Shown piece by piece: positions 21,091 to 42,587 of a DNA stretch of 61,758 nucleotides (the stretch's first letter is position 1; each line of letters begins with the position of its first letter). The stretch is from Aplysia californica (Eukaryota). The notes under the pieces are model-generated. The model saw nothing but the letters and a program-made list of their open reading frames with translations. It was not told where the DNA came from and did no database searches. The position numbers and the translations under genes are program-made. Location of the stretch: NCBI RefSeq assembly GCF_000002075.1, contig NW_004797434.1, positions 435,529 to 497,286 of the forward strand. The letters are read 5' to 3'.

Positions 21091-24000
21091 ATGCCTGTGC
21101 ACTTCAAGGTGGTTTATTCTTGGTCAATCAAGCCCCGTGTCTGTCTCATTATTATTGTTTGAATTTCTAAATTGAAGCTGAGCAAAGTTTAGGTTATAAC
21201 AGTCGCTTACTGTGAGTTCCAGGGGGAAGACTTACCCGACCCAGCCCACCTGCATTTCTCTGATTAAATCATGTCCAAACACATCGCAAGAACTTATCTT
21301 AAAACTTTATTTGAAAATCTGATGTTTGAATCTTATTTCTCTTAATATTTTGCTTGCTTTAATACTGCCTTTAACTTGCTGTAAATGCAGGTAGCCTGAC
21401 AAAGTTGTATCTTTAGTTTGATTTCATGAATTTATTTTCAAAATGATAGAATTTATTCATGTAAATTGTAAAAGTAAAAGCTTCTTGGAAAGCCATTATC
21501 GAACCAGCTAACCCGCTCCCCCCCCCCCCTTTTAAAAGAGGCAAAACTGAGTTGAGTCTAGACCTTTGGCCCAGGACTGAAACAGTTAGCCGCGAATAGG
21601 GAGGATAGCTTTCTGGGCTATCAGTTCAATGGAAATCCCATGCCCATGGGCATCCACTTTCCAATGTTTTTATTTAGGTTTGGAGAATTCAGTCAATATG
21701 ATACGATTCAATAACCACATGGCTGGACCAATGTTTTGTACTAATAAAAAAAAATTCGAATCATGGGAAAGTTACACGTACCCCCCCCCCCCCCCCCCCC
21801 CCCCAAGTATGGGAAAATACATGGGGTGACACCCCACCCACTTGATTTTTAATTCATCGGGCTTCCCCTCCACCCTCCGGAATTGTAGAAAAGCAAAATG
21901 GCAACATAGGAGTGTATAGAACTACACAACAATTTATCCAGAAATGTGTTAGTCGAATATAGGCCTTCCTGAATTCTCCAAATCTACAAATCTGAATAAA
22001 ATGCTGGAAAGTGGAAATATATAACGTCTTATGGTATCTTTATATATAAATTTGTAATGAAAGCCATGTTATTTGCACATTTATTGATTAAGTTTAATGC
22101 CTTCTTTATTATTTTTTCATTGAAATATTTGGAAGCACTTTGAGGCGCTTGGAATTGGAATGTTGCCAGTCAATATAAAGCCTGCTCTATGAAAAGCTGA
22201 TTTTCTGTTTTGTAGGGAAAGTTTGTTCAAAGCCGTAACAATATCATCCCAAATCCTTCCTTTATTTCCTGAAAACAAAGAGAAATAAAATTGGAAGAAG
22301 AGCAGATGATATATAGACAGAATTGATAACTCCCATGTTGCAATGAACTCTCTAAATTAAACGTAAAATGCCTTCCTTGACACTGTAGTCAACAACGACT
22401 CCTTCAGAGTGATGTATGTTTCTTCTTCCTGCTATTTGTTTAGTAACACACTAGCACTAGCTAGCAAATCAATTATATTATTATTAGGTGATGTTCAGTA
22501 CGACTTGGTACAAGTGCAATCATGCACAATGTATTCATGTGCTGTTGTTGTTTTTTATAACTTCCTTTGACCTGGTTACAGGGTGCCTCAGAGTACAAGG
22601 TCCATTACAAATGGATGGACTCTTTCCGCAGCAAGTCATTCCAGCCCTCGCAGGAGCAGGCTGCCCGGCGTGCAGGCCAAATATCTGTCAATTCATGTGT
22701 GTAGTTTTCTGGTGAAATGCTGAAGAAAAATTCATCTGCCTCTTGTTGTTTTCCTACCCCAAGCTATCACGACATCCTGTATTATTATATAGTGATATAA
22801 TATTTATATAAATTTTATCAGTGTCCTTTGCTTGTTCCTCCAATGACTGCATCTTGAAGAGTTCCCTGAGTGGATGCTACCTTTCTTCAGTTTGTAGCTT
22901 GCAAGTTTTAACAATATATGATAGTTTCTTGGTGTTATGTTGATGCATTTAAGACCATTTTTTAATTTAGTGTACAGATTCTCACAGTTTATCTGTTGTA
23001 TTTTGCAATGTGTGCAATGTTAATTCACACCACCCTCTGAAATTTAAAGTAATTGAAACAGAACTCTTTATAGTCTTGAAAAAGACTACAATTTTATCAT
23101 GTTTCAAATCTTATAATTTGAGAATTTAAATAATTTTGACAAAACTTTTTTCAACTATTTTTGATGATCACAAATAAAACTAATACGCCCAGTCAGTAGG
23201 ATGAAGTGAGAAAGCTGCATATATTTTTTTTTTTAACATTTTTACTCTTGTCTTGAATTGAAAAGATGCAGTCAGTGGCTTGGGTGATACCTTTTTGCCT
23301 TGTATTTTGTGCATCGTAGGTTATTAATATTTAATAACCTTTGATATGAAACAGAGTGGATGGAATTTTTCATGTTTGCAGGTAGTAAAAGATTGATAAT
23401 AGTTTTTAACTCTTCACATTTTAGATAAAGATTTACTCACTTGAAAGTATGTTGAAATTTTTTCATCAAAGAAAACTTGATGCACAATCTTCTAGTTTTG
23501 TTCTTTGTTACTAGTCATAGAATTCTAACATTGGTCATTCATACTCACTCCAGATAATTAATTGGTTTGTCCAGTAATATCTTGGTAATTCTTGCACACG
23601 TCTGATCATCATTCATTTTTTAAGTAATGTTAATTGAAAGACCTACATCATGGTCAGTATTTCCATTCATTCAGTTTCATTTCCTTTTGCCAGCTGTGAT
23701 CGTGCATGGGCATCGCATGGAGTGCTAGCTCACCACTATAGCACTTATTCGTACTGTTACAATAACTGCTATGGTAACTTAAGTAGAAGCCCTTGCATTG
23801 TTTTGTTCAAATGGAGTCTTTTGGAATATCAGACAGATGCAGGTGGGAATATCTCCCAGATGGGGGTTCTTCCTTTCCTTTTAAGTTCTACCTCCGTGTA
23901 GTCACTTAATGACAAATCACTAATCAAGAAGGAAAGCTTTCTTGCACTTTTTTATTGCTGCATATCTGGGCTTGTAAAAAATCTGACCAGAGTGAAATAT

Positions 24001-27000
24001 TGGAGCAATGCAATGAAATCCTGTTGCTTTGAAATCGTATTAAAAGTAGAAGCCAGATGTGCTAACTCACTATAGTTACAGAAACCACTTCACTGTATAC
24101 TGGAAATTTTTTAATATTCAGGGCTTGTGGACAAAATAATGCTATCAGTCTTCTTTCTTTTCTACAGGCTCATGTCACATCTGTTGGTGGGGTTGCACTA
24201 ATGGTCTCACTTGTCACGTCATTGTCGTTTTGATAGTCACATGGTGTAAAAATCATTCTCACCTCAGAGCACTAAAATAATTTCCTCAGAAACTTGGCGT
24301 ACCCAGAACGTGGAACCTGATTCAAGACTCATGAGATTGAATTAAAGATTTTACCGTCAGACAGCTAAAACCCCAGATCCAAATATAACATAGTCCTCAA
24401 GTATTATTTTGTGTGTTATTCTATATTATTTATATTGTGCCTCTGCAGAGCACATCAGAGTATAAGCAGAAATTTGGCTCTGCACAGGCTGATGATGCTC
24501 CAGCAGGGCCCAGTGCTGGGATTGAATCTGACAAATTAGGTATTTTTGTTTTTTAATTAAACATTATATCTTTTCTTTTTGTTTCTATTTTTCTCACGTT
24601 TGAATCATCATGTGAAATTGCCACAGGCACGTTCGTTAGAAACTGCACAGTGGTACAGTTTGTCTGGAGAAGTTTTTTTCGTTTTTTTTGGTTATTTAAA
24701 AAAAAACATTTTTAACTTATTGCACCCAAGTGAGATACTAAGAAATGAAAATTTTAAGGCTGGCTTTTCATAAGAATGGCAATTCTTGCTAGCAGTTCCT
24801 TCAAGCTGATAACCATTCTGGCGTCTCCTTTCATCATATTCAGTTTTGTTGTTGGGTCATCCGTCCATAACTATAAACTGGTCAAAAATGAGTTTCCATT
24901 AGAATTTTTTGTGAAGTAAACAATTATCATAAAGGCAAACAATTTAAAAGCTATGAAATATGGTGTATTTTACTTTGCAGTTTATGACAATTTTTAAAAA
25001 TTTGATAAGATTCTGCTATGTGTAAGAGACAATGAAACGTTACACTGTTTTTACTATTATCTTCCTTTGGTAAATTATGAAGCTCAAAACAATTTTATGA
25101 AAATGCTGTAGAATGGTGCATATTATGCATAATATCAGCTTAACCAAACGCAGCAGTTTCTGCTTAAAATCCCATTGTCTTATAGAATAGGCCTACCCTG
25201 CTTTTCTTACAAAACCTTTTTAACTCTATAAAACCATCCACTATTAGGGATAAGATCTTGACCATTAGGGACAAAATTCTGCAAAGATCCGGCTTTTCTC
25301 AATACCAATTTAAATTTAGTCTTCAACTAGCATCTCTCTCTAGTGGCCACCTCTCCTGATAGTTATATTATGATCAGTGGGTGTCTTATACCACACTGCT
25401 TGTGTGTGACCACACTGCTTGTGTGTGACCACACTGCTTGTGTGTGATCTTATCTGAGGATAAGCATGAGATGGAAAGTTGCATGTAGGCTTTCTTTTCT
25501 GCCTGGCTATAGTATCTCATCTACACAAGTTGGTGCCTTGTTATCACGTTTGCTGGTTTAATTTTTGCAATGATACTTGATATGGTTCAAATGTGGCTGA
25601 ATTATCTGCAGTTTTACTTTTATATACTTTGATAAGCATCCTATTCCTATTGTTTTCTCATGTTATCTCGCTTTAGTGAGGGGAAAAATGTAGGTGTTTA
25701 ACTACGCAAAATACAATGACTACAGTTCCGACCAATTTGAGAGTTCAAGTTTATGGACAGCTCTTCACCAATTACATCGTAGGCTTCCCCTCCCTTGATA
25801 CAGATTTCACTAGGATTGTAACTGACATTGACCTCAAAGTAGGATGAATTTATTTGGGTCATGGGTTTGCTCAGTGTTCTAATTCAGTTAAGATCTCACC
25901 AACCTAAGATTAAGCTTTTTCCTGACATCTGAGCAGCAGAATCTTGAGCAGTGACAACTGTATACACTGCAGCTTGGAGGAAAACCCCCCCAAGGATTTT
26001 GTCTTGTAAAAATTTAATTTGCTCATTTTGAGCTCTCATCAAATATGAAATATATTGTAAGTACTGCAGACTTCCAGACTTCTTGCACTTTGTATGTGTC
26101 CATTAGCACTGTGTTACAATTGTGTGGTCAATAGTACACCACCCCACAGTGCCCTGAATTGTCACTGCATTAAAATACATAGGGCTAGTGATTCTAATAG
26201 TGCTGTGGCTAAGTGGTAATTTTTTCTGTGGAAAATCAAAAAGGTATATCTTATCTAAAAATCCATTTATTTTGTAGCTATGCCTTGTGTATCCCATGCT
26301 AGTCAAATGCCTTGAAATTACTCAATGATAAATCAGAATTTATAGGTGTGTCAAAACCCTTATTTTGTCTTAATATTGTAATCGGACATGCACTCATATT
26401 TTGGTTTGCTTTTAAGTACCAAAATTCAAGGGAGAAAAAAACGCTTGGTGCATACATATATATTTTTTTTTTTACATACACACGTAACTGACCCCAAAAA
26501 CTCTGGGTTTATGCAGATTGTGTATTATTCAGAAAAGTACCTGGTAAATGGGTAGTATAAGTTTTGTGATAACCTCCTGGTCAGAGAAGTACTGAAAGCT
26601 TTGCATATGTTATACATAGATGTGATTTTGTTTATAAGCTCTTAAAATCTGACAGGTTGACATGCACTAGATTAAGTGGTTGTACCCACACTCCATAATT
26701 ATTCTAAAAACAGAAGTGTAAATATTAATTTTCATAAGGTTTTTAAATTTCCTGAAGTGAGTAACAGTAAGTGAAGAATGTAATTTCCTAAGTCTAAATG
26801 GCTTTTTGCTCCTTCATTATTTGACCACCTTATCCAACTATTGCCCTCTTTCTTTGTTCACAATAATGAGAATGCTTTTGTCTCAGTCAAAATGTTTGCA
26901 TGATCGTCAACAACTAACTTGTGCACAGTGGTTTCATAGAAGTGGCAACAAACTTTGTACGTTCGATTTTCTTCTTAACTGGGAATGTGTGATAGTTTAA

Positions 27001-27228
27001 AACATTTATCAGAATTTGAAAAGTTAGCCTTTTGTTGAGCATTCTCAGTATTAAGAAATATGATGAAAGATTATTTGCTTGTAAATGAATTTGATTTTGC
27101 TTTTAAACAGATGATCTAAATAGAATTTGTGATTTTTGTCCTCTACCCATTTTCCTGGCACTTTCAAGTTACATGACCATTACTGTATCTATAGCGCCGT
27201 AAATACCTACCATACTATACCATACCTC

Positions 27229-27273
<45 letters not shown>

Positions 27274-30200
27274 CCCCTGTCCAATATCTGCCTATTTTGA
27301 CAAATACCAGTCCTTCACCCACATTTGCATTGCTTACAATTTTAATGTGGTTCAATCCCAGTCCTATATGTTAACCTCCTACTCTGGTTGTCATGAGGGA
27401 AGTAAACATAAATGACCTGATCATGCAGCTTATGTTTTTAAAAATACTATTGCGATTGCCTGTTCAAAGTTTTAATATTCCTTCAGTAAATACTGAAAGT
27501 ACATGTACATATATATCTCAGGCATTGCATTAATAGTTTTATCGCCCATTCAAAGTTTTGATATTTCCTCTGTAAATATGAAAATTACATGCACATGTTG
27601 ACTGCTTAGTGTTTAGACTTCACCGTACGCCATTTTGAAAAGTGACATATGACAGATCTTACTCCAAGCAGTGATATGTTCCTTAAGCACCGGGTTAACG
27701 TTTTTATAGCCCATACATAGTTTTGATATTCCTTCTTTAAATACTGAAAGTTTAACTTGTGCATAGTATGTACCTCATGCGTAGCATTAACATTTTCATT
27801 GTGCATTGAAAATTTTGATATTCCCTCTGTCCTGGATCGGAAAAGTAAAGTAATTGGATCGGAAAAGTATATTCCCTCTGTAAATACTGAAAGTTTAACA
27901 TGTGCATTGTGTGTGTACCTCATGCATTGCGTGAACAGTTTTATTGCGCGTTCAAAGTTTTGATATTTCTTCCGTAAATACTGAAACATTTTCATAGTAT
28001 GTACTTCATCCCTTGCGTTAACATTTTTTTTGCCCGTACAGTTTTGATATCCCCTCTGTAAATTCTGAAAGTTTAACATGTGCATAGTATGTACATCGTG
28101 CTTTGCGTCAACAGTTTTGTTGCCTGTACATAGTTTTGAAATTCCTTCTGTAAATGCTGAACCAACATGTGCATAGTATGCACCTCATGCGTTGCGTTAA
28201 CATTTTCATCGCACATTCAAAGTTTTGATATTCCTTCTGTTAACACTGAAAGCTTAACAAGTGCATAGTATGTGTCTCATGCATTAGGCCTATGTTTACA
28301 TTTCTTCCCTCAACCCCCCCCCCCCCCCCTCCCCCCCCCCAAACAGCCCTCACCGTGGAACCTCCACTGCAGCACAAGAAGCGACTGGAGGGTCCGCCGA
28401 CCTCCTTGTCCACCAACTACTTCAGTGTCCCGTCAAAGGAGATGGACTATGCTCTTCTGGGTAAGACATTCACGAACGAGTTTATGAGTTTTATAAATGT
28501 TTTTTTGGGGGTGGGCTTTTTGTGTGTGTGGTTTAATATTGAATGGGAGGGAGGGAGAGCAGGTGGTGAGTGGAGTTCACTGCTGACTGATGATACTTGT
28601 TTCATGTCTGTTTAATGTTCCTGTCTTTCGTCTTCCTATTTCTTAGCCCTTCCATCCGCCACCCCATCCACCCATTTTGTTTCACTCTTTTTGTGTCAGT
28701 ATTCTTCTCCTGAACATTTTTTGAGAAAGGATGTTTTTTTGTTTTTTTCGTATTTCCTTAGTAAGAAATTCATACTACTCTGCTTACAGCTTAAGCAGCT
28801 TCTCCTTCAAATCTGAAAAGAAACAGTGAACTGTAATGTGTTTCTTTTTGGTGCTTTTACAGTTTCATGTAGTGCTTATTTGCTGAAATATTCTACCTTA
28901 GTCTCTTCAATTTATATAACACTCGTTATATGTTAATATTTCTGTAATGAAATCCACAGGCCAACAAGAGAAATTTGCTCCCAATGTACGCTACCAGCCA
29001 AAACCATCCCATTCAGGCCAGAAAATCTACAAAAACAAAGAGAATTTTGATAATGCTCCTCCACCGAGCAAGCAGTTGAAAATGCAGAAAAGAATTGTAA
29101 GTTCTTCTTCTGGTTCTCTTTTGTTGGAAAGCTGCATGAGTGTGGTTGCTACAATTTGTTAGAAGAATGGTCTTGATGTTAAAAGTTGCATGAATACTTA
29201 TCTTTCCAGCACTGCAAAGGTTTTATATTTCATGTTTTATGTCTTATGAAAAATGTTTAATCGTTTGTTCTTAGAGCTGAAAATGAGTTATACATACAAC
29301 ATTCAGCAGTGCTTTTGAGTTAAAAGATTTTAAGATTCCCTTCTCAATACGTAATCATTGTAGAATCCAGGAACCATTTAAGGGATGTTTCAAATTGAAA
29401 TGTATTTTACGGATCCCAGGATTTTTTTGGTGTGGTTTCAATTCTTTCTTCGGACTGTATACAGAAAAGAATTGTAAATTCTTATTGGAGTTTTCTCTTT
29501 TGTTGAAAATCTGCACTAGTGTGATTGCTACAATAGGCTGGAAGAATTGTCTTGATATTTAAAGTTATGTGAAGCTAAATGCGCATTAACTTTGAAAGTG
29601 TTTAGATATTTCATGTACAAGAACACAATTTTTCAATCGAAAGAGTTCTTTCTTAGCTTCTGTGGCTACTTTAACCCTTGGTATCTGTCACCAGAAACCT
29701 TTGTTCAAGGAACGTCACCTCACCGTTTGTGGCCTCTGTTCTTTCTCCGGACTATATATTGCTCTAAATGCTCATTAACTTTGAAAGTGTTTTGATATTT
29801 TATACAATACAATGCAGTTTTGCTGTCAATAGAGTTCTTTTTTAGCTTCTGCGGCTACTTTTACCCCTGGTATTTGTCACCAGAAACCTTTATTCAAGGA
29901 GCGCCACCCCACCGTGAGCCGGTCCCCGCCCCGTCAGGCGCCGACCACCTCCACCATTCTGTCTCCACCTCCCGCTCCGAGAGTCCCTAAAGAAAGCCTG
30001 GACATCAAAGAAGCTCTCAGAGACAAGGACCTGAAGGATGTGCTCGGAGATCAGGCTCCTCCTCCAAAAGAAGCAGGGGTTAAGACACGGGAATCCGACG
30101 CTCAGCTGGAGAAGGGGCGTGGCAACAACATGAATGAGTTTGTCCAGACCAACATGAAAAAGGGCGTGGCCTTGTCAGGACCAGAGGCTCCAGTAAGTAA

Positions 30201-33200
30201 AAGGGAAAGACGAACAGAAAATTCCAGAAGGTGGTAGAAAAAAATTAGAACATATTTGTGTATTTCTGTCTGAAAGAAAATTTAATCACAATAGCATACT
30301 TGCCTCTCATTCCATTGAATCGGATTGGTCCCAGGTTTTTTTACATGTTCAGTAGATAAATAAGTTTTGGCGTTTCTAAACCCTGTTCCTCAGAGCAGGT
30401 TGGACAGAGTACCTTGAAAAAAGACCATGGACTTGGGAGTCCTGTGTAGTGCAGTCAAACATGTCTTAGACAACCAGTTTTTGTCACTGAGATAAGGTGT
30501 CATCTTAGGTAGCTGATCACCTTGGGCAGTGTCACTATAATATGGGAAAAAAGTGCTATAGTGGAAGTGAGAATGGTCGTTTTTACAGGCAGTTATTTTG
30601 TACAGGTTGCCGACAGATCAGGTTCAACTCTACTCTTTACTTGTTAACACTTACAGTACCGAATGCTCACATAGTGAAAAACCCTCAAGTACTGCACCAA
30701 TTTAGAACATTGAAGCTGTGGTAGAATTTTTTTAAATTAAAAAAACCTTGGCAGCCCCAAGAAACACGCCTTAAAAATTCATAGAGCTATTATATAGAGT
30801 GACTTCCTTTGTTTTTTTCTTCAGTGCAGTGCATCCGTTCGTTGCTTAATTATGTTTAGTGTGCCTGGTCGCGTCAGCGACTACTAAAGTCGCCAGCGGC
30901 AGTGACCGCATTCTACTGCCTGACGACTAAAATTGCTGACGGTACTGTAAGTGTGAAAGACACCTCACTGTTAAAAATGTTACATGTACTTTGCCTTTTA
31001 GCAGACCATTTCTGTGCTCTTTGGAGCTGGACAACTTATGCTATACACCTACTAGTTGTTCAGTGAGTCATGCTTGAGCGTGCATTGCTTCAGTTTTGTT
31101 CTTGTTTATAATCTAAAGCCGGCAATCCGGTTATTTGCAATTTTTCAGCTGCAAGTAAACAAGGACCAAACACTCTCTATGTCTGTTGGTTCTCTGTTCA
31201 TTCTTCTGATTGATGTAAAGAGGTAAATTTGCATGATTTCAAATGTACTACTAAACATTTACCATGTCTGTACCTCCAATGTTAAGTTTTACATTTAATG
31301 TGAGAGGTAGAATTGTGTAATGTTCTGTTTGTTTCCATGCACTTCAAAATTTTCAGGCTTTTTTTCCCAACAACTATATTTACCCCTGATCTCCCCCCAG
31401 GCTGAGTATGCGCTCAAGTACAAGGCCGGAGTGGCGCCTCCAAGGCCGGTGAAGAAGTTTTCCGAGTATCAGAGACAGTTCCAGTGGAAAGATGGCATGA
31501 AAGCTTCACCTCTTTTGGCAGCTGAAGAGGTAAAAACATAGAGGTTTTTTAAAAAAATCCTTTGACTGCCTTGCTCACATACAGTATTCGTAACTTTTCC
31601 AGTTGTTAGGTTTTTTTAACATTGCATTTATTTGACATTGTTACTAATTTTTGATATTACAGATATATTAAATCATCTCTCAGAAAGATTGGTGGCATTA
31701 CAGAAATGTGGAAACATCAGTCGCAATCTTTTAATTTGACTATAAATGACTTTTACACAAACTTTGTTTAGCATAAATTCTATTCTCAGATGCCTCTTTT
31801 GTATATTTTAAATGTAAAATGTAAAGTAAAGCTATGCATTACTAAATTTGGATCTTTTCATCACGTAAAGAGATATCTCTAGTTCTGATGAATCCAACTT
31901 CTATTTTGACAGCAGAAAAAGAAGAGAAAATTTTATCAGTATATGTATTCACCAAAGTGAATGATTCAGTCTGTTCTCCCCCCCCCCCCCCCCCAATGTA
32001 AATGTCTTTGTACAGATTGTGTACAAAAGCAATGCAGAGCTGGGCCCATACAAAACGGACGCCATTCCCAAACTGTCAGAGTACAGGCAGCAGTTTCAAA
32101 AGTGGAAAGCTCCCGACTTTGCCGCTGATGTCAACTTAAATGTGAGTGAGAAAATGGCTACTGCAGCAAGTCAACAGAAGCAGGAGAAGAAGAGAACCGT
32201 GGTATGTTACTTTTCACACTCAGGGATTTCATTTTCGCATCCCTTTGTTACACCCACTTATTTCTTCAATTCTTCGTTATTCTTATTTCTACTTTCTGTC
32301 TGCTGCTTGGTGCTGTACGATGATTGTTTTGATAGTATGCAAAAGAAATATTTAGAAAACTAGCAGGTCTTCAGGTGTAATATTTGTAAGAACTGAGAAA
32401 GACCAAGGCAAGAATTGTATAAAAATATTAAGCGTATGACTATGCAAATCACCGAAAAATGTTGTGGAGGAAAAATTTTCTTTGTGAGACACAATGTCGG
32501 GGAAGGTCTATTTTCAGCTGCTTGAAAAGTCACTGGGTTGTTTCCTTTTTTTGTTGAGATAACATAATTCTGGGGCACCAAGAGTGACCTGGAAAAGGTG
32601 AAAGACTTTGTCATATTTTGACTGCAGGAGAAAAAACAGAAACGTTGATGATACAGTGTATCGGTGCTTTAACATAACTTCAACTGAGATTATATATATA
32701 TGTGATGCGTGCTGACAAAATGAGTTACTTCTCGGATTCGAGCCTTATGGAAAAAGTTACATCACGCTTATAGGTGAAGTTTTTATAATTTTTAAGTACG
32801 AAATAATGAAAGGAATAATATACTTAAAGAATATGGCTTTAACAAAAAATCTACAAATTTGACCCTGGTTTCAATTTTTGACCAATATCTTGATTTTTGG
32901 ATTGCGAGAAGTGACCAATTTTGTCAGCACACCTCACATATAGACGATGCAAAGATGAGGGTCAGCCAACATCGTGTTTATGAAGTATTGTCTTTTGCCT
33001 GGAAAAACTTAAATATGAAAGTTTTGCAAACGCAGTTGTTGTTTCAAAATGAGATTTCTCTGTACTAGAGTGTGTCTGTCTTTTATTATATACCTTTTAT
33101 GATGTAATGTTCAAGATAGGATCGATGTCAATGTATTTTGGTGGGTGGTTGGCGGGTGCTCTGGTGTGGTTTGCTTCTTCTTTCCTATCAAACACCTATC

Positions 33201-36200
33201 GTCTTTTTCTCCCCTCCTTCTTTTTTGTGTTTGTTACCCTCTTGTAACGTCTCTAATCTTCGGCACTTATATGACCTTATTGTGTTGCAAGTGCCGTAAA
33301 ACACTTACTAAAACTAAACTATGTATTTTTGATTTTTTTTTTCTTTCACAATTACAGGCAAAGAGAAGCAAGAGTGCAGGAGGTAAATATAGTTCACTGG
33401 TTTTAATTTTTACAAAATATGTGTAAACTGTTTGCATGGGTCACTCACAAAATGAGCTGATAAACAAAGTTAACATGGTGTAGTTCTTGTGTATTTTTTT
33501 AAAGGAATGAAGCGGAAATTTTTTCTGATAAAAACCTGTAAATTCTTTGCCTTATCGACAGGCTGAAAGGCTAGAACTCTGATGGCCACTGGATTGGAAA
33601 AATAAAGTGAAGTTCTATAGAAATTGAATGTAGTAAAACCAGTTCAATGTTTTTAGCTAATTCTGATCTATCGCAACAACATTTAGTGTTTATTTTGCCT
33701 CTGATTACACCCTCTCTTTGTTCCATGATTGAGCAGAATTGTCTGGGTCGGGAATGATCTAAATTACATTGATGGGAGGGCATGATTATTTATTTGTGAG
33801 GCGTGCTGACAAAATGAGTTACTTCTCGTAATCCAAAATTGAGATATCAGCCGAAAATTGACACAAGGGTCAAATTTGTACTTTGTCACCTGAAGTCATT
33901 TTCTTCAAGTTTAACATGTTTTTTTTCATATCATACTTTAAAATTGTACAAAATTAACGTATATGAATTCGTTGCGTCTTTGTCCTTAGAACTAAAATCT
34001 GAGAAGTTTCTCATTTTGTCAGCACACTTCATGTTTACAACATTTCTGTATTATAGCAGTCATTATGTTTGTTTATATTATTTGACAGCTGTCTTGCACC
34101 AAGAGCCTGAGGAAGTCGATGACGAGATGGGAGCTGAGGGTGCCGATTCTGAGGAACAGCTGAAGACAAAGCTGCTGAAGTCTCATGGAAAGATTAAGTA
34201 AGTAGAACACGTAGCTTACTGTTGTGTCAATAGGTCATTTTCTGCCGGTCGCCGAAGTGTGGTTCTGAACTTTGAGAGATGAAGAAAGCTTGAGAATAGC
34301 AAAACATTTGGATTTTTTTTAAAGTTACAAATTCTGAACAGCATTTGCATTTTTTGTCTTGACTTTTCTTTTTTAGTTTCCCTCAACTTTGAGAGATAAG
34401 AAAAACTTGAGAACGAATTAGTAGCAAAACATTTGGGTTTTTTTTTTCAGGTAAGGAATCCTAAATGACATTTTTTCTCTGACGTTTTTTTGTAAAAATC
34501 TACTTCATACTGATCAGTGTTTCGAACTTCTTTAATTTATAGACTCGTGTGTATTGCGAAGTAAGCTTTTATCCTGACTAAATAGTCCTGAGTGGCAAAA
34601 GGAAAGTTTTCCAAATGTTTCCCCTTTGTCACATTTCACCTATGATGTAAACACAGCTGTGAACCCAATTAGTGATACGTGTAGTGTTTTCCTGATTGTC
34701 TTTTAGGCGCCTGGGGTCAGAGTACAAGGCCAACTTCAAATCTCCACTGCGGTACAGCTATGCCGAGGGGGCGTGGCGGGGGGCGGCCCCTCCACAGATG
34801 ATGCCCCAGACATCGGTGAGTTGTTATGGACTTGCTATGACTTTATGCAGTTGTGAGCGCCATAAAAAATTTCCAGGGGGCTCACATGGTCGAGAGGTTA
34901 CGGTATTCACCTCTCATTCAATAGGTATCGGGTTCAAATCCGGACAGCGACAGAAACTTTTCTTCTCTAAAATTATCTCCTTTCACCTCCTTTCCTGCTC
35001 GTTAACAATGTTCTGACGTCTGCTTTCATCTCTACTTTCTGAAAACCGATCCCCTCACCTCATTTGCCCCCTCCTCTGGGCTCCTGACTCTTTCTGCAGC
35101 CTTCTGCTGCTTCTCCATGGCTCCTTCTTACTGCTGTCTTTCAGCCACACCCCTGGTCTTATAATAGGTAAGATCTAATATCTAGCCTTTTTGGATAAGG
35201 GGGGAAAATCTCGGAGGACCCGTGTGCAAGTTGCACACATTAAAGATCCCTTGTTGGTCCAAAATTGTTAAAAGTTAATTTTGGCAGCCACCTGCGCAAA
35301 ATTCGAAATTTCCTACCAACCTGAAAATATTTAATGTGTTCCGCACACTCGTATGACCTTATGCAGTTGCTAGCGCCATAAGCTCTTACAAAAAAATTAA
35401 TAGATAAATAAATGAATTTCCTAAACACAAGTCAAGCCAGTTCAAAAAGTATACAACTTACTTATGCGATATTGTCTTAGTTTGCTCAAGTGACCCTTTG
35501 TGACAAGGCTATAGTTATGGAAAGATTATAATATTGTAATTCAACTTTTATTAGAGGAGATTTCATTTTCACAAAATTTTCATTCCTTTTGGGCTCCTTC
35601 AGTACTTCTTCCTCTTCCCCCCATCTAAATAATGATTTTTTGGTGGTTGGCGGGTGCTCTGGTGTGGTTTGCTCCTTCTTTCCTATCAAACATCTATCGT
35701 CCTTATCTCCCCTCCTTCTTTTTTGTGTTTGTTACTCTCTTGTAACATTTCTTATCTTCAGCATTTATGTGACCTAATTGCGTTGCAAGTGCTGTAAAAG
35801 GCTTACTTTAAAAAACCCACAACCAAATGATTTTTATCACTGTTTATCTGGACTTGATTATCTGTCTTTTCATGTTTGTGCATAGAGTGCTGAAAACACA
35901 GATGCCAACAATGACAAAGAGAACAACAACAACAACAACGCTAGCGAGGAGGCTCCTCTCTCAAACTGGTTTGCAGAAGTGTTGGAGCTGCGCCGGCGAG
36001 CGCAGGAGTACCGTAAACGTGCGCAGGGAACACACTTCTCCCGTGAGCACCTGGTGCAGCTGATGGCCAAACAGAACGAATGCTGGGACCTCCACTCGGA
36101 TGGCTCCTCAACTGTTCGAGCCCTGAACCTGGAGACCTCGGGTGCTCATCTCAGGTTACAGATTCTTTCTCTTTTCATCAGTTATCATGATTTGTTTTTG

Positions 36201-39200
36201 ATAGTGAGTCAATACTCTTTTTAGATGGAATGCCTAGATTTCTTATTACAGTCGGAACTCTCTTAAGACGACTGCCCATTGTCGAGAAGAAAAGTGGCTG
36301 TCTTAGGCAGTGTCATTTGTGAGGCAGCGTTGTGATATCAGGCGCTCGTCAATTTTTGGGCATCTGGAGCTATTGGTATCATTATAAAGCTTGTTCATTT
36401 GACCATCTTTTGATGAAAAAAAACACATGTCCATCTTGAATAGAAGTCGAGATATTTGTTATTGAAGGAGGTTAAGGTTGGCTGGTTTTAGACGTAAAAT
36501 TAATGAGAAAATGGCCGCCAAAGTTCGGTGATTTCCAAAGCTTGAGAGTCCCTGAAAACTGAAACTTTACATTTGTTGTGCCTTTAATCATTGTTTTTCA
36601 GTAAAATCTACACAGAAATATGTTTTTAAATGGACGTAAAAAGCGTTGAGCCAAAAAATGAAAATAAGAAAATTATTGTCAAACTGGAGGAAAAATGTCG
36701 ATATCTTCAATTTCATTATTTTGACGAGCGCCTGATTTCACCATGCCGCCTCACATTTTAATTTTTAAAAATACACTAGGGGGAAATTGGGATGTGGCTG
36801 TTAGAGGAGGTTTGACTGTAAATTTTTAAGACCCTAAAACTTTGCTTCAAATAATTTGCTCTCGCTTTGCAGGCATATTGCAGACTACAGAGTTTGTTTC
36901 TGCCAAAGTGTGAAACAAAGCTAAGTGTTATAAAGAAAGGTGCTGATTTTCTGGATAAATGAAAAAATCTGAATTTCTGAAACTGTCCATACTTTTCTCT
37001 CTGTATAAAAATAGTCTTCTCACAAGATGTTAAAGACAATGTGTTCCCTAAATTTGGAATCTCCGCTCATATGTTTTGAGAGGGTCTTAGAAGTTAAGGA
37101 TTTTTTTTTCATAGATTAGTGGCTTCTTTATAAAAAAGAAATGAAGCTTCTAGATATCCCCAGACTTTTCTCTCACATTTATCTTAACATAATCATTGCT
37201 CTCTGGGATCTGAAAACTCTTCTCTTTTCCTGCTGTGGGAAATTAAATCTTTAATTTTGAAGGGGACCGCAAAATGACTGAAACTGCTCCCTCTTAGCTA
37301 GCAAAATATGAAAAAAAACCCACCATACATCACAAATGGGGGTGGGTGGGGGTGGGGGGTTCGACAGGAATAAGTTCTATTCTGTGTCTAAAAAGGGCTG
37401 GAACACTGGAACCTTAACATTCTATGAGCACAAATGTACTTTGGTTTCACACTTTGCTGGTCACAGATATGTTTACCGTACACCAAAGTGAATGGAAATA
37501 CCAAAGTTTTGTTATTCTCATGTCAGCGAATGGCTTTCGTCTTCAGAGGTAAGGAAAAGAACCTGGCCCAAACAGCTCCTGCCGACCTGGTGGATGCCCT
37601 GTCCCATGAGGCCACAGAGGGAGATTCGCCGCTCATGTCGGACGTGGAGGAAGCTGAACCCCAAAGAAAGGAAGGAAAGAAGAAAAAAGGGAGGAGAGGA
37701 GGGAAGAGCAAGGGAGGAAGGAAAAGCAGAAAGATGGCCTGGTTGGAGGAGCAGAAGGAGAGTGTGGCTGAGCAGAGGAGGTGAGAAAGTTTACAGTGGG
37801 ATGGTGTTTTTAGTTGAAATGTGATGTGTTTTATTTTCGTACAGTCTCACTGTATTCTCTCAAGTTTTTGGCTAATCTCTCTGATTTTGTTTGGTTTCTT
37901 TTTGCTACAGCTATTCTTTGTCTGCTCCCCCCATCTCTTTTGTCTCGTCCGTCTTCTTTCTCACCTCTGCTGAGGAGTTTCATTGAGAAGCACGAGGAGA
38001 ATAGTTCTTGCGAAAATTAAATCAGTTACTGATAGGGACCATCGGTATGAATACCGTAACTTTTTATCTCAGAGGGGGGGGTAAATCCACTACGCCAGAG
38101 CCCTTTTTTGGTACTAAATCTAAAAATGACAGAAATGTCACTAAATGGGTAATAAAACGAAACAAGTGAACCAATTTGGATAGTTGGTCATCTAATGAAT
38201 GAACCTCCGGTAAAAGAGACCTGTTTTCGGCAATTGCCGAATAGTAATTTGATGTCAAAGTCGTTGTAAAGGAATGTGCCCAAGCCAATGCCAGCAGTTC
38301 CGACCTCGAGCCGCTGGAGAGTGGCTTGCTGGAAATAGGGAGTTAAGATGAACCCTGTTGAGGAGGGGTGAGGGGTTTTGAATGGAATCTGTCTCTGAAG
38401 ACCCCAGTTCTGAAAACAAATAATCAAGTAATCTCTCAAGTAGATGTTTAGCACTGTGAAAACAGAGAGAACCATGTGTTAGAAAAAAAGGAATATGAAT
38501 AATGGAATGGAATTAAAAGTATTATGAGGTAGTGAAAAAAAGTCTTGATGTTCTGTTCCTATGAACTACTGTCTATTTTTCCTTGTATGCATGTGTATGT
38601 AATACTTTCAAAGATAATTTGCTCAGTTGTGTTCCTTTCATACCTCCCTCAGTTATTTGTCATATTCTATCATCCTTTTTAGCATTTTATGAATGTCTTT
38701 TTGTCAAAAAGTGACCCCCCGACCCCCCCCCCCCCCCCCCCCTATAAAATCATTTCAGGCAACTTGAAGAAACGAGACAGAGAGAAGATATGAAGGACGA
38801 TGATGATAATGACAGCGAAGGGTTGGTGGGAAAAGAGGGTAGGCTTCCCACCCCTTTGCTACAAGGTGATAGCTCGGCCCGAAGACATCACTTGGACCTG
38901 ACCACCCCTGCAGTGGGCGGTGCCATTCTCACTTGTCCACCATCCAAGAGCAGCAAACTGATCATCACTTCTCGATCTGGTATGTTTGTTGAGTCAATCC
39001 GTGTGTCTAAGATGAACTATGGTATGCATACAATCGAAATTGTCTAAGATGCCCACAAATTGTAGTTGAGAAAAGTAGCCATCGTAGACGGGAGGACGGC
39101 TTACACAATTATTGTCAGTAGAATGTAAAAAAACGCAAGGGAAGGAAATGGGAAGTGGCCATTTGTACAGGAGATTGTCACAAACAGGTGGTTGTTAGAG

Positions 39201-42200
39201 CAGTTTCGACTGTATTTTGAAGTAGATTTTCATTTGATTTAAATAGTTTGAGCAACGCTAAATTTTGCGGTACATAAAACAAAAACAGACAAATGTGTTG
39301 TTCTTTTGCTGTAGAGAATGAATGATACTCAGAGTGCTGAATTTGAAATTCCTGTTTGTTGTAATGTTAGTTTGGGTCATTTTACTCAACTTTCTTTTTA
39401 GAAAAAAAGTGATCATGTTACTTTCTTTATCTTTAATTTGGCCAAAGTTTTTATGCTTATAAATTGATACGTGTTTCTGTTTATTTGTAAGAGTTATTGC
39501 AATATTTAATTGCTGGCTGGTCTAAACAAAAATTGTTTTTATGTTCTGTGGAAAATCAGTGGTTCAGGTGACTTTTTGAAACCTGAGAAGGATGGTTGAT
39601 GGGTGTTATGGTGTGGTTTGCTCTTTCTTTCCTATCAAACATCTATTGTCCTATTCTCTCCCCCTTCCTTATTTATTTGTTACTCTTTAATAACACCTCT
39701 AAAAATTGGCACTTATATGACCGTCTTGTGTTGCAAGTGCTGTAAAACTCTTACTAAAACTAAAACACAGATACCGAAGTAGTTGATTATGTGTGTTTGT
39801 CTCTTCATACATTTATGAAAATTTTTTTATTTGACGTTCAGGTGACAGCTATGTGACTGCATCTGATGATCTCCCGGTCAGAGGTGAACAGAAGGTCAGT
39901 GCCTGTGTCCATAGAAACCTTTGAGATAGATCATATCTAATAGTATAGGTTATTTAAGAGGCAGGATCTCAGAGTTTAACGTCCATCTCCGAAATGACCG
40001 AGCCAAATGGGAAATTTGTGTAAAGTACCCTTCCCAAGGACACTCAAACCCATGAACCCAAAATCTCACAATTACGGGTCCGGAAGCCTGACCACTAGTA
40101 GGTCACCGAATCCACTAAAGTTTTATTTGAAAAGTTAAAACAAACATTTGGATGAAGAGTAACCTCATGGTATACAGTTGACTCTGTGTCAAATTTACCA
40201 CTGCATTGATTACATGCACACATAGCAATCAATTTTTGGTATTAGTTTAGCTTGTCTGTAAGAAGTTCACTTCTTCATCACATATGTAAGTTGTATGCTT
40301 TTGAACTGGCTTAACTTGTGTTAAGGAAATTTATTTCTTTTTAAACTTTTGTAGAGTGGATTGATTTGTTTTTGGAAAATCCCTTCCAGCCTAATATACT
40401 ACTCCGTGTTGGTAAGCCTTCATCTATTTCTTATCTTTTCCACTAGTTGGAGATGTTGCCGTGGGTGGTTGGCGGGTGTTCTGGTGTGGTTTGCTTCTTC
40501 TTTCCTGTCGAACATCTATCATCCTTATCTCCCCTTCTTCTTTTTTATGTTTGTTACTCTCTTGTAACATCTCTAATCTCCTGGCGCTTATATGACCTTA
40601 TGCATTTGCGAGTACCGTAAAACCTTTACTAAAACTATTTAAAAAACAGGAGATGTTGCCTTTTGGACCCTTCTGCGATAAAACACTCTGCCTCTAGCCA
40701 TTCCCAGCCACATAGGTTTCTATGTCTTGTTCCCATCCTCTGTTAGTTCTCTCCCTCCCCACCCCTTTCCTCTCTTACTTTCTCTTGCCTTCTTGGTAGG
40801 CATTACATGTTACTTACATTATATTGGGACTCCCGTGGCCTAGTGATTAGCAAGTTCATTCTTAAAAGTAATGTAAAGCAAGTGTCATTGAAAAGAGATT
40901 TTGATGGGTGGTCACTGAGGTGTGTCTATTAGCAAAACACGATAACCCAAGTTTTTAAAAAAAAATTGAGGTGCTTCACAGTGGCGACCTCCAACGTCAT
41001 GTTGTAAAATTGTCTGCTTTGGTATTTATTTATTATTTTTTTTTATTCGTTCATTTATTCATTTTTATTTATTTATAGAAGAATGATAACATGATGTTTG
41101 TCCCTCTCTCACCCGACAGAAGTACAATATGGACAAACTGCTGACCCTGCCAGCCGGCGGCAAGCCCTCACCAGATACGCATGCCCTGAGGGACGACGTA
41201 GCCGAGTCTGATCAAGCGCTGGTCACTCAGTACATCGTGTCTCCTCCACTTCCTGGGTCAGAGGAAGGTATGGCTTAAGGCTATATAGGTCACAACATGG
41301 TGGAATCAGACGCTCGACAATTTTTGGGCATATGGAGTTATTGATTTGATCTGAAAGCTTGTTCTTTTGTCTTGCTTTGATGAGGAAAATACCCATCTAT
41401 CTGGAATAGAAGGGGGGGGGGGGGGTGTTACCTAGTGTCTAAAGTTAAATAAGCAAGAAAATGACCGCCAACATTAGGTGACTTCCAAAGCTTGAATGTT
41501 CTTAGAAACCGCAAAGTTATATTTTTTGTGCCTTTCAAGTTTTTCAGTTAACTCCACAAATAAGTTCTATTAATGATATTTTTGTTTTATCAAGGAATAA
41601 AATAAATTCTTCCAAGTTTTTTTAAAGAATATTCATAATATTTATGCCTTGTTCTGTACTTGACCTTTTCGTGTTGCAAGTGCTGTAAAACACTTACTAA
41701 AACATTTCAGATTGTCAATTGCTATTTCTGTGTTCCAGACAAAGAGAACAAAGGCCAGAGAAAGAAGAAGAGCAAGGGGCAGAAGCCAGGCAGTCTGACG
41801 ACCATCAAGGAAGGCTATGGAAAAACATATCAGCCGAAGCCCTTCCTGGACCTAGGTGAGATTTCTGATATCTTGTAGGCCCACTGCCTGCTGTGTGGTG
41901 AGGTCTTGGGAGATGGACAGTAAATTAACATCTTTTCTTCGGTCAACTGTTCAGATAGATGTACTAAGCCCAAAATTTCATTCTTTCGAAGTTCGTACCC
42001 TCTGTTTATCCTGGCTCTTCGTATAGTGTCTCATTGAATGGCTCTGTTCGTTAAATGACCAGACGATCGTTGTTCTCAGATGTTTTCCTAGTGGACAAAA
42101 GTGTATTGGTTCTGCTGATTAATATCAGAAGATTGTGTTAAAAAAGGATTGGAATCGTTATCTTTCACGGTGAGCTAAAATTCCCCATATGTTTATACAG

Positions 42201-42587
42201 TCTAGCATGCACAAAGGGAAGTCGGCGGGACGTAGAAATCTTTTTGTTGTGTATAAGTTTCAAGCTATCTCAAGTCAGACAATCGGGTTAAAATATTACA
42301 ATACATGAATTATTGTTTTCTCAACACGAACTTAAAAGATCTGAGCAGAATTCTCCTATAAATTAATTTTAATGCCTGGAGTGAACATAACCGACTACCT
42401 TCATGCTTTGAAGAATTTTCTTCTCCGTCTCTCCACAGATGACATAAAAGCTGGCACTCTGGACAAAAAAGATGACGACGTCCTGTCAGTATCTCTTATG
42501 TCCGTGGCATCCAGCGGCTCTCTCGCGTCTGAGGTCTTGGAGCGTGCCAGGAAGCGACAGGAGTTTTGGAACAAGAAAGATTCGTAG
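21091..42587 (+). CDS. MDM1: Nuclear/centriolar protein MDM1; exons 21091-21108, [2a 22582-22696 or 2b 24449-24539], 28347-28460, 28960-29096, 29884-30192, 31401-31529, 32016-32201, 33358-33382, 34089-34197, 34707-34815, 35886-36154, 37547-37780, 38759-38979, 39842-39894, 41120-41267, 41739-41855, 42439-42587; 813 aa (2a) or 805 aa (2b)
   Basis: Family motifs: MPVHFK-GASEY, four SEYxxx(F/Y) repeats (SEYQRQFQWK, SEYRQQF, SEYKANFKSP..Y.Y..GAW), WFAEVLELRRRAQEYRKRAQGTHFSREHL, GRLPTP...HHLDLTTPAVGGAIL, and C-terminal LERARKRQEFW. All junctions are GT-AG and phase-consistent. Confidence 0.93.
22582..22696 (+). CDS. MDM1: MDM1 alternative exon 2a (115 nt, phase 0 to 1)
   Basis: GASEYKVHYKWMDSFRSKSFQPSQEQAARRAGQISVNS; acceptor TTACAG, donor GTGTGT. 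Confidence 0.75.
24449..24539 (+). CDS. MDM1: MDM1 alternative exon 2b (91 nt, phase 0 to 1)
   Basis: STSEYKQKFGSAQADDAPAGPSAGIESDKL; acceptor CTGCAG, donor GTATTT. Confidence 0.75.
25391..25447. repeat. 3 x 19-bp tandem repeat CCACACTGCTTGTGTGTGA
   Basis: Seen directly. Confidence 0.9.
27455..28290. repeat. Degenerate tandem repeat, unit about 85-92 bp, about 9 copies
   Basis: Recurrent AAAGTTTTGATATTCC(C/T)TCTGTAAATACTGAAAGTTTAACATGTGCATAGTATGTACCTCATGC..GCGTTAACA. Confidence 0.85.
32702..32937. mobile_element. Sola-like MITE (AWWT TSD)
   Basis: TIR GTGA(T/G)G(C/T)GTGCTGACAAAAT, with ATAT on both flanks. A sister copy lies at 33796-34032. Confidence 0.7.
33141..33319 (+). mobile_element. 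Family A short retro-element, near-consensus copy
   Basis: Full length from GTGGGTGGTTGGCGGG to GGCACTTATATGACCTTATTGTGTTGCAAGTGCCGTAAAACACTTACTAAAACTAAAC. Confidence 0.85.
33796..34032. mobile_element. Sola-like MITE, same TIR family as 32702
   Basis: GTGAGGCGTGCTGACAAAATGAG...CTCATTTTGTCAGCACACTTCAT; left flank ATTT. Confidence 0.7.
34876..35398 (+). mobile_element. tRNA-Deu/Nin SINE, family B copy 2
   Basis: Collinear with 16707-17250 over its whole length. It is inserted directly behind another family tail (34836-34868). Confidence 0.85.
35641..35812 (+). mobile_element. Family A short retro-element
   Basis: Collinear with 33141-33319. Confidence 0.8.
36319..36754. mobile_element. Sola-like MITE (ATTT TSD)
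   Basis: About 34-bp imperfect TIR GTGAGGC.GC.T.GTGA.ATCAGGCGCTCGTCAA, with ATTT on both flanks. A partial relative lies at about 41295-41545. Confidence 0.75.
39591..39765 (+). mobile_element. Family A short retro-element
   Basis: Collinear with 33141-33319. Confidence 0.8.
39960..40095 (-). mobile_element. tRNA-derived SINE fragment with CORE/Meta-like and Deu-like blocks
   Basis: The minus strand has GTGTCCTTGGGAAGGGTACTTTACACAAATTTCCC followed by TTCGGAGATGGACGTTAAAC. Confidence 0.5.
40461..40636 (+). mobile_element. Family A short retro-element
   Basis: Collinear with 33141-33319; the tail is of the GGCGCTT type. Confidence 0.8.

What the first reader, a model, noticed from the sequence alone, without database searches (positions are those of the whole stretch)
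22582..24539. MDM1 has two paralogous, mutually exclusive versions of exon 2
Seen: exons 2a (115 nt) and 2b (91 nt) both start in phase 0 with xxSEYK, both end with AG plus 6 residues plus 1 nt, and both join exon 3 in frame. Including both creates TAG at the junction (T+AG), and skipping both causes a frameshift. Established: SEYxxxF repeats are the MDM1 microtubule-binding motifs; from memory, the human exon-2 peptide GLSEYQRNF..W...AGLRSDQL has the same 38-residue length as 2a. Inference: an exon duplication swaps the first microtubule-binding repeat, possibly giving centriole versus cilium/sperm isoforms. I know of no description of this.
Basis: partly seen in the sequence, partly recalled or inferred. 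Interest (0 to 1): 0.7.

Follow-up and report, generated by a model that had tools for sequence, protein, structure and literature searches.

The report
Ancient either-or exon in MDM1/SAXO6
This sea-hare gene for a microtubule-lining protein of centrioles and cilia carries two old, diverged copies of one exon and splices in one or the other, as snails, oysters, mussels and scallops also appear to do, which likely lets one gene make a version with a full-strength and a version with a weakened first microtubule-binding repeat.

Summary
Confirmed. The gene is MDM1/SAXO6 (Pfam PF15501); its product is identical to Aplysia californica RefSeq proteins. Exons 2a (22582-22696) and 2b (24449-24539) have the stated phases; each joins exon 3 in frame, both together stop at codon 45, neither stops at codon 84. 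Transcript contigs show exon1-2b-exon3 in 4 of 8 runs laid and 2a-exon3 in 1 (30 letters on the short side); none shows 2a-2b. Both forms are already RefSeq models (X1, X2), so the event is annotated, but I found no paper on it. The same swap appears in protein records of 9 mollusc genera, a brachiopod and a nemertean, and in 0 of 6 multi-member deuterostome clusters. 2a is the ancestral-type copy (38 aa, motif followed by Trp, 53% identity between molluscs); 2b is the derived one (no Trp, 26-40 aa, 24%), and has lost the motif in two snails. A single mollusc-wide origin is favoured, not proven. Tissue use and function are untested. A 20-bp intronic duplex around 2a is a weak mechanistic lead. 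Verdict: a real, old, new member of a known class.

The parts
21035..21108 (+). Exon 1 (coding part 21091-21108, MPVHFK; donor phase 0)
   Evidence: Transcript contigs begin at 21035-21079 and splice at 21108; aa 1-6 of X1 and X2
22582..22696 (+). Exon 2a, 115 nt, ancestral-type copy: Mn motif 1 followed by Trp; weak donor CAT|GTGTGT
   Evidence: Pfam MDM1 positions 1-31, E 0.0093; RefSeq X1; X9 contigs end at 22696 and join 28347
24449..24539 (+). Exon 2b, 91 nt, derived copy: Mn motif 1 without Trp, shortened middle
   Evidence: Exon1-2b-exon3 in single contigs of X2, X4, X16 and X15; RefSeq X2; homology test
28347..28460 (+). Exon 3 (phase 1 acceptor, shared by both forms)
21245..21264 (+). 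Upstream arm of a 20-bp intronic inverted repeat that brackets exon 2a (candidate regulatory duplex, unproven)
23828..23847 (+). Downstream arm of the same inverted repeat, in the 2a-2b intron
21091..42587 (+). Whole MDM1/SAXO6 coding span, 17 coding exons per isoform, four (S/T)EYxxx(F/Y) motifs
   Evidence: Mapping of X1 and X2 on the window; motifs; Pfam

Best explanation
Exons 2a and 2b are a tandem-duplicated, mutually exclusive exon pair of MDM1/SAXO6 that likely dates to the mollusc ancestor or earlier and likely tunes how the first of four microtubule-binding (Mn) repeats engages tubulin. Shown: each exon is spliced to exon 3 in frame and only single-exon choice keeps the frame. Inferred: transcripts with both or neither carry early stop codons and would be removed by nonsense-mediated decay, which enforces exclusivity after splicing; 2a has a weak donor and appears to be the rarer choice, 2b the common one. 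Inferred: 2a keeps the ancestral repeat (motif, Trp two residues later, S-[FY]-[RK]-S...F-x-P...EQ tail, fixed 38 aa), whereas 2b has lost the Trp in every mollusc pair, has fewer aromatic residues and drifts in length, so it would bind the microtubule lumen or a neighbouring inner protein more weakly or differently. Untested: which cells use which form.
For: Junctions: exon1-2b-exon3 in 4 of 8 runs laid, from 4 studies; 2a-exon3 at donor 22696 in run X9; no 2a-2b or exon1-exon3 joint listed in any of the 8. Frame logic. Same substitution, with identical flanks, in 12 within-species isoform pairs examined, plus Elysia crispata: 9 of 14 multi-member mollusc clusters, Lingula and Lineus; 0 of 6 multi-member deuterostome clusters, 0 of 1 insect, 0 of 1 flatworm. 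0 of 353 fetched proteins carry two exon-2 units in tandem, 209 carry one. In 9 of 9 mollusc pairs exactly one copy has the Trp; identity 2a-2a 0.53, 2b-2b 0.24, own 2a-2b 0.32; 2a to deuterostomes 0.44, 2b 0.29; aromatic residues fewer in 2b in 9 of 9 pairs. Best tree of 30 peptides splits 2a-type from 2b-type, SH-aLRT 88. All 11 unnamed mollusc-like ENA/Logan representatives that have an exon 2 carry the 2b type (mostly oyster near-copies, so not independent). The motif is needed for full microtubule binding of human MDM1 (PMC4626064, passages) and is an Mn motif (PMC10973386, PMC13087473, passages).
Against: The 2a-exon3 joint rests on one contig with 30 letters on the 2a side, one below the tool's 31-letter rule, in a run labelled organism B; the exon1-2a joint was not seen directly, only in RefSeq X1. 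Contigs show presence, not levels, and protein databases cannot show stop-containing double-inclusion forms, so their absence there is partly built in. Relatives were compared as annotated proteins only; their genomic exon order was not checked. AU tests do not reject own-species pairing of the two copies (p 0.11-0.40 in 4 tests), and the 44-row tree needs 3 changes for each class, so one origin is not shown. Both Lingula and both Lineus copies keep the Trp, so those pairs may be separate duplications. 5 of 14 mollusc clusters show no pair. Human MDM1 fragments with two motifs still bind microtubules, so changing one of four may matter little. No data on the role of the Trp were found.
Confidence: 0.7

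Rival explanations
1. The pair is real, but 2b is a relaxed, functionally neutral spacer: what matters is switching the ancestral repeat on (2a) or off (2b), not a second specialised binding mode.
For: 2b-type peptides are only 24% identical between molluscs and 26-40 aa long; Littorina and Pomacea 2b lack the motif altogether; Mercenaria has a short motif-less alternative N-terminus.
Against: 11 of 13 2b-type peptides keep (S/T)EYxxx(F/Y), and all 13 score above at least 299 of 300 shuffles against the exon-2 profile; abalone, scallop, oyster, Solemya and unionid 2b types keep nearly the whole 36-38 aa pattern.
Confidence: 0.3
2. The pairs in different lineages arose by repeated independent duplications of the same exon (convergence), not from one ancestral event.
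For: AU tests do not reject own-species cherries; Lingula and Lineus pairs keep Trp in both copies and do not sort into the mollusc classes; convergent tandem exon duplication is well documented (PMC9741552, passages).
Against: In molluscs, 9 of 9 2a copies are nearest to another species' 2a and 6 of 9 2b copies nearest to another 2b; none is nearest to its own partner; Trp loss marks one copy in every mollusc pair; own-species constraints cost 3.7-16 log-likelihood units.
Confidence: 0.2
3. Exon choice is set by a long-range RNA duplex (21245-21264 with 23828-23847) that loops out 2a by default, so 2b is used unless the duplex is opened.
For: 20 nt, 90% complementary, -32.3 kcal/mol; 0 of 200 dinucleotide shuffles as strong; the 18-letter pattern occurs only at these two places in the genome, so the arms are not a dispersed repeat (the pattern was made from the pair, so this shows uniqueness only).
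Against: 17 of 107 overlapping real tiles, and 3 of 33 after repeat masking, hold an equal or stronger duplex; of 11 MDM1 exons tested one other has a stronger flanking duplex and one a similar one; no competing partner of similar strength exists (next best -19.5 and -22.3); conservation could not be tested.
Confidence: 0.2
4. 2a and 2b are consecutive exons joined through a phase-0 donor, adding a fifth repeat.
For: GT donors at 22686 and 22698 give an open 2a+2b frame; the crude U1 pairing energy of 22698 (-2.6) is no worse than that of 22696 (-1.9).
Against: Consensus match 3-4 of 9 versus 7 of 9; contigs join exon 1 directly to 2b and 2a directly to exon 3; 0 of 353 proteins hold both units.
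Confidence: 0.03

Closest known systems
Tandem duplicated exon substitutions (homologous mutually exclusive exons), e.g. the human catalogue of PMC9741552 (passages)
   Same: Adjacent homologous exons of equal phase, used one at a time, old, giving proteins identical but for one short region.
   Different: The term MDM1 has 0 occurrences in that paper's main text (supplements not read); vertebrate and echinoderm records seen here have one form. Here the region is a short linear motif in a disordered protein, and the copies differ in length and are only 18% identical in Aplysia.
Human/mouse MDM1 (SAXO6), PMC4626064 and PMC13087473 (passages)
   Same: Same family, same four (S/T)EYxxx(F/Y) Mn motifs, motif 1 at residue 9.
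   Different: Human isoforms described there and the skipped exon 4 of PMC12856215 (passages) are not a duplicated exon 2; no second exon-2 form was seen in mouse, bat, frog or sturgeon records fetched.
Tau/MAP2 repeat-number isoforms (3R/4R; recalled, not from a call)
   Same: Splicing alters one microtubule-binding repeat of a disordered, repeat-based microtubule protein.
   Different: Tau adds or drops a cassette exon and binds the outer lattice; here one repeat is substituted by a paralogous copy and Mn motifs bind the lumen.
Docking-site/selector control of mutually exclusive exons (Dscam1, srp, ATE1; search listing and abstract starts only)
   Same: A long-range intronic duplex brackets one of the alternative exons.
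   Different: Only one duplex was found, with no competing selector, and no conservation evidence.

Membership tests
MDM1/SAXO6 (PF15501) | Sequence match to the MDM1 family | tested here: met
   4 exon peptides pass the Pfam cut-off, 2 more match weakly, of 12 scanned; 100% match to named MDM1 proteins
MDM1/SAXO6 (PF15501) | Four (S/T)EYxxx(F/Y) repeats in the N-terminal half | tested here: met
   Positions 9, 252, 295, 385 in X1 and 9, 244, 287, 377 in X2
MDM1/SAXO6 (PF15501) | Binds microtubules; sits in centriole or axoneme lumen | not testable with these tools
   Shown for human and bovine protein only
Tandem-duplicated mutually exclusive exons | Adjacent exons that are homologous | tested here: met
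   2b scores 15.0 bits on a profile free of 2b-type and Aplysia peptides, 0 of 300 shuffles as high
Tandem-duplicated mutually exclusive exons | Same splice phases, each alone keeps the frame | tested here: met
Tandem-duplicated mutually exclusive exons | Each exon is spliced into transcripts | tested here: met
   2b: both joints in 4 runs; 2a: downstream joint in 1 run (30 letters) plus RefSeq X1; upstream joint not seen directly
Tandem-duplicated mutually exclusive exons | Never both, never neither, in mature RNA | tested here: inconclusive
   No such joint in 8 runs and 0 of 353 proteins with both, but contigs drop rare forms and annotation hides stop-containing ones
Tandem-duplicated mutually exclusive exons | Both copies kept in relatives | tested here: met
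   Protein records of 9 mollusc genera, Lingula, Lineus; genomic DNA of relatives not available
Tandem-duplicated mutually exclusive exons | Tissue- or stage-specific use (typical, not required) | not testable with these tools
   Runs carry no library or tissue record
Exclusivity by steric hindrance or distant branch point | Very short intervening intron, or long AG-free zone reaching the upstream donor | tested here: not met
   2a-2b intron 1752 nt; AG-free zone before 2b 45 nt
Docking-site/selector competing RNA structure | One docking site with competing selectors for each exon | tested here: not met
   One duplex of -32 kcal/mol; next partners -19.5 and -22.3, within the shuffle range
Docking-site/selector competing RNA structure | Conserved arms with compensatory changes | not testable with these tools
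   No related animal genomes are held

The most novel reading that the evidence does not exclude
Since the lophotrochozoan ancestor, MDM1/SAXO6 has used a splice switch to set the strength of a microtubule-inner-protein repeat: the Trp-bearing 2a form lines motile cilia or sperm axonemes, the weakened 2b form serves centrioles and non-motile cells, and a long-range RNA duplex hides 2a by default. It would be the first case of paralogous exon substitution tuning an Mn motif.
Probability: 0.15. Interest if true: 0.72.

Novelty: new member of a known kind. Interest (0 to 1): 0.47.

Why it matters
[quoted passage not shown] An exon pair kept since about the Cambrian split of snails and bivalves (date from my own knowledge) is a natural paired experiment: the same protein with and without the Trp and tail after motif 1. 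It points to residues beyond the published motif that may set specificity, and these residues are conserved in the human protein, whose loss causes retinal dystrophy. The splicing class itself is ordinary and both Aplysia forms are already in RefSeq.

Tried and rejected
No RNA holder is listed on record; the spliced GT..AG joints are what shows the contigs to be transcript-derived. Of 24 runs listed I laid 8: X1 is genomic DNA, X21 does not hold the gene, X8 covered only downstream exons; lack of cover of 2a or 2b in a run was not used as evidence. X16 has an unspliced 346-nt contig over 2a (22393-22738), which shows nothing about splicing. Tables of pieces were cut (30 and 44 rows hidden). 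Polymorphism test: 0 of 24 substitutions of the X1 contig 21946-23813 fall in 2a, about 1.5 expected, not significant. Steric, distant-branch-point and U12 explanations: intron too long, AG-free zone short, donors are ordinary GT. In one search I set exon 4 one base off, which produced false downstream stops; one search corrects it (its donor row 31527 is two bases off and was not used). Searches failed on script errors; one search is the working version. The 44-row peptide tree is mostly unresolved (3 of 41 branches starred). Two unnamed proteins with a Trp-less exon 2 (P0050, P0196) fall outside molluscs, one next to Capitella, with weak support; no partner form was listed for them, so they do not extend the claim. 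Singletons were classed as 2a- or 2b-type by the Trp, so only the 9 pairs count for the Trp pattern. No fold or complex was predicted: the protein is disordered and the partner is a filament. Literature: no description of the pair in searches for MDM1+centriole+microtubule, MXE+mollusc+exon duplication (22), MDM1+mutually exclusive+exon (33), MDM1 with mollusc terms (34, 61; the listed papers had 0 MDM1 mentions, and these loose searches listed only 20 of 2,222 and 15 of 5,146), Mn motif terms (56) and SAXO6 (62). Subscription papers and supplements were not seen; a genome-wide mollusc splicing table could list the event.
Full report
Observation. Exon 1 (coding 21091-21108) ends in phase 0. 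Exon 2a (22582-22696, 115 nt) and 2b (24449-24539, 91 nt) each follow a CAG acceptor and end in phase 1; exon 3 starts at 28347. Exons 1+2a+3+4+5 and 1+2b+3+4+5 are open and equal the starts of two stored proteins; both exons together stop at codon 45, neither at codon 84.

Gene identity. Of 12 exon peptides scanned, 4 pass the Pfam cut-off for MDM1 (PF15501) and 2 more, among them 2a, match weakly; 2b does not match Pfam by itself. The best homologue is 100% identical and is named Aplysia californica MDM1 isoform X2. Its cluster holds exactly two members, RefSeq X1 (813 aa) and X2 (805 aa); X1 carries 2a, X2 carries 2b, and the rest is identical after the junction residue. So the event is already in the automatic annotation. 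The gene has 17 coding exons per form up to 42587 and four (S/T)EYxxx(F/Y) motifs. Passages of PMC4626064 show this motif is needed for full microtubule binding and stabilisation by human MDM1, that two motifs suffice for co-localisation, and that repeat 1 starts at residue 9, as here. Passages of PMC10973386 and PMC13087473 class these as Mn motifs of microtubule inner proteins; the gene is now SAXO6. [quoted passage not shown]

Transcript evidence. I laid 8 of 24 listed runs, all contigs. Single contigs run exon1-2b-exon3-exon4 in X2, X4, X16 and X15 (four studies). In X9 one contig covers 22581-22696 and stops at the 2a donor, a second joins 22667-22696 to 28347-28427, and a third reads on into the intron. 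That is the 2a-exon3 junction at the predicted donor, but with 30 letters on the short side, one under the tool's bridging rule, and in a run with another organism label (no mismatches in those contigs). The exon1-2a joint was not seen; it rests on RefSeq X1. No 2a-2b or exon1-exon3 joint was listed. Levels and tissues cannot be read from these data.

Conservation. Twelve within-species isoform pairs differ only by this segment at the N-terminus: Aplysia, two Haliotis, Patella, Littorina, Pomacea, Magallana, two Mytilus, Pecten, the brachiopod Lingula and the nemertean Lineus (in 10 of 12 the whole remainder is identical); Elysia crispata also has both types. Of 14 multi-member mollusc clusters, 9 show the pair; Biomphalaria shows only the 2a type, the chiton Liolophura only the 2b type, Mercenaria 2a plus a short motif-less start, Dreissena and Physella neither. 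Six multi-member deuterostome clusters (three starfish or sea-cucumber clusters, sea urchin, acorn worm, sturgeon), one cricket and one flatworm cluster show one form only; single-member clusters (amphioxus, tunicate, Owenia) cannot tell. Of 353 proteins fetched, 209 have one exon-2 unit and none has two. These are annotated proteins; I could not see the relatives' genomic DNA.

Which copy is which. All 13 mollusc 2a-type peptides are 38 aa and have a Trp two residues after the motif, as do all 12 deuterostome peptides and all 6 other spiralian ones; in each of the 9 mollusc pairs the other copy lacks it. Mean identity is 0.53 among 2a, 0.24 among 2b, 0.32 between a species' own copies (0.18 in Aplysia); 2a is closer to deuterostomes (0.44 versus 0.29). 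2b types run 26-40 aa; 11 of 13 keep the motif, Littorina and Pomacea have lost it; all still score above at least 299 of 300 shuffles on a profile made without them. 2b has fewer aromatic residues in 9 of 9 pairs and lower net charge in 6 of 9. The best tree of 30 peptides separates the two types (SH-aLRT 88, not starred), yet AU tests do not reject pairing by species (p 0.11-0.40) and the 44-row tree is largely open. One duplication before the snail-bivalve split is the simplest reading; Lingula and Lineus keep the Trp in both copies and may be the same event before the Trp was lost, or separate events.

How exclusivity may work. The 2a-2b intron is 1752 nt with a 45-nt AG-free zone, so steric and distant-branch-point models fail. 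Both wrong outcomes give early stops far upstream of many junctions, so nonsense-mediated decay would clear them (established principle, inferred here). The 2a donor is weak by a rough U1 pairing score (-1.9 against -5 to -9 for the other correctly placed donors), in line with 2b being the form most often assembled. Two phase-0 GT donors near the 2a end could join 2b in frame but are poor matches and unseen. A 20-bp inverted repeat (21245-21264 with 23828-23847, -32.3 kcal/mol) brackets 2a. It beats 200 of 200 shuffles, and its arms are unique in the genome, but 3 of 33 repeat-masked real tiles are as strong and no competing partner exists. It is a lead at roughly one chance in five.

Function. 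Most likely the switch changes the grip or the partner of repeat 1: 2a is the constrained ancestral version, 2b a weakened or altered one that in some lineages drops the motif. Against a large effect, three other motifs and the C-terminal POC1-binding part (PMC11564547, passages) are common to both forms.

Comparison and verdict. This meets the tested criteria of a tandem-duplicated mutually exclusive exon pair, a class known to be old, often tissue-specific and often convergent (PMC9741552, passages; MDM1 not mentioned in its main text). I found no paper describing the MDM1 pair (limits under Tried and rejected). Real, old and apparently undescribed in print, but of a known kind and already in RefSeq: interest 0.47.

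Noticed in passing
window 45779-59040, minus strand: A multi-exon gene whose ORF translations look like transketolase (name recalled from the peptides, not searched) lies tail to tail with MDM1.
   Followed up: no
window 29575-29915: A 189-bp tandem duplication (1.8 copies) copies the acceptor and first bases of MDM1 exon 5 about 190 nt upstream; contigs use only the downstream acceptor at 29884.
   Followed up: partly
window 33358-33381, arms near 32896 and 33830: A 24-nt in-frame micro-exon of MDM1 is bracketed by a strong inverted repeat (-38.7 kcal/mol or better), probably a dispersed repeat; it could be a cassette exon.
   Followed up: partly
proteins P0004, P0066, P0134, P0136, P0339-P0352, P0037, P0114-P0127: The exon-3-type unit (EP.LQ.KKR) is itself tandemly repeated in freshwater pulmonate snails and in heterodont clams, where RefSeq models include the copies in many combinations.
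   Followed up: no
proteins P0087, P0090, P0100, P0112, P0171, P0177: Oysters, mussels, a starfish and an acorn worm have an alternative first exon that replaces MPVxFK and, in bivalves, combines with either exon 2.
   Followed up: no
proteins P0077 (Littorina), P0049 (Pomacea): In these caenogastropods the 2b copy has lost the Mn motif but keeps the terminal WAG segment, the part most like vertebrate WAGLRSDQL.
   Followed up: partly
window 27869-28285: An 89-bp tandem repeat (4.6 copies) and a poly-C tract lie just upstream of exon 3.
   Followed up: no
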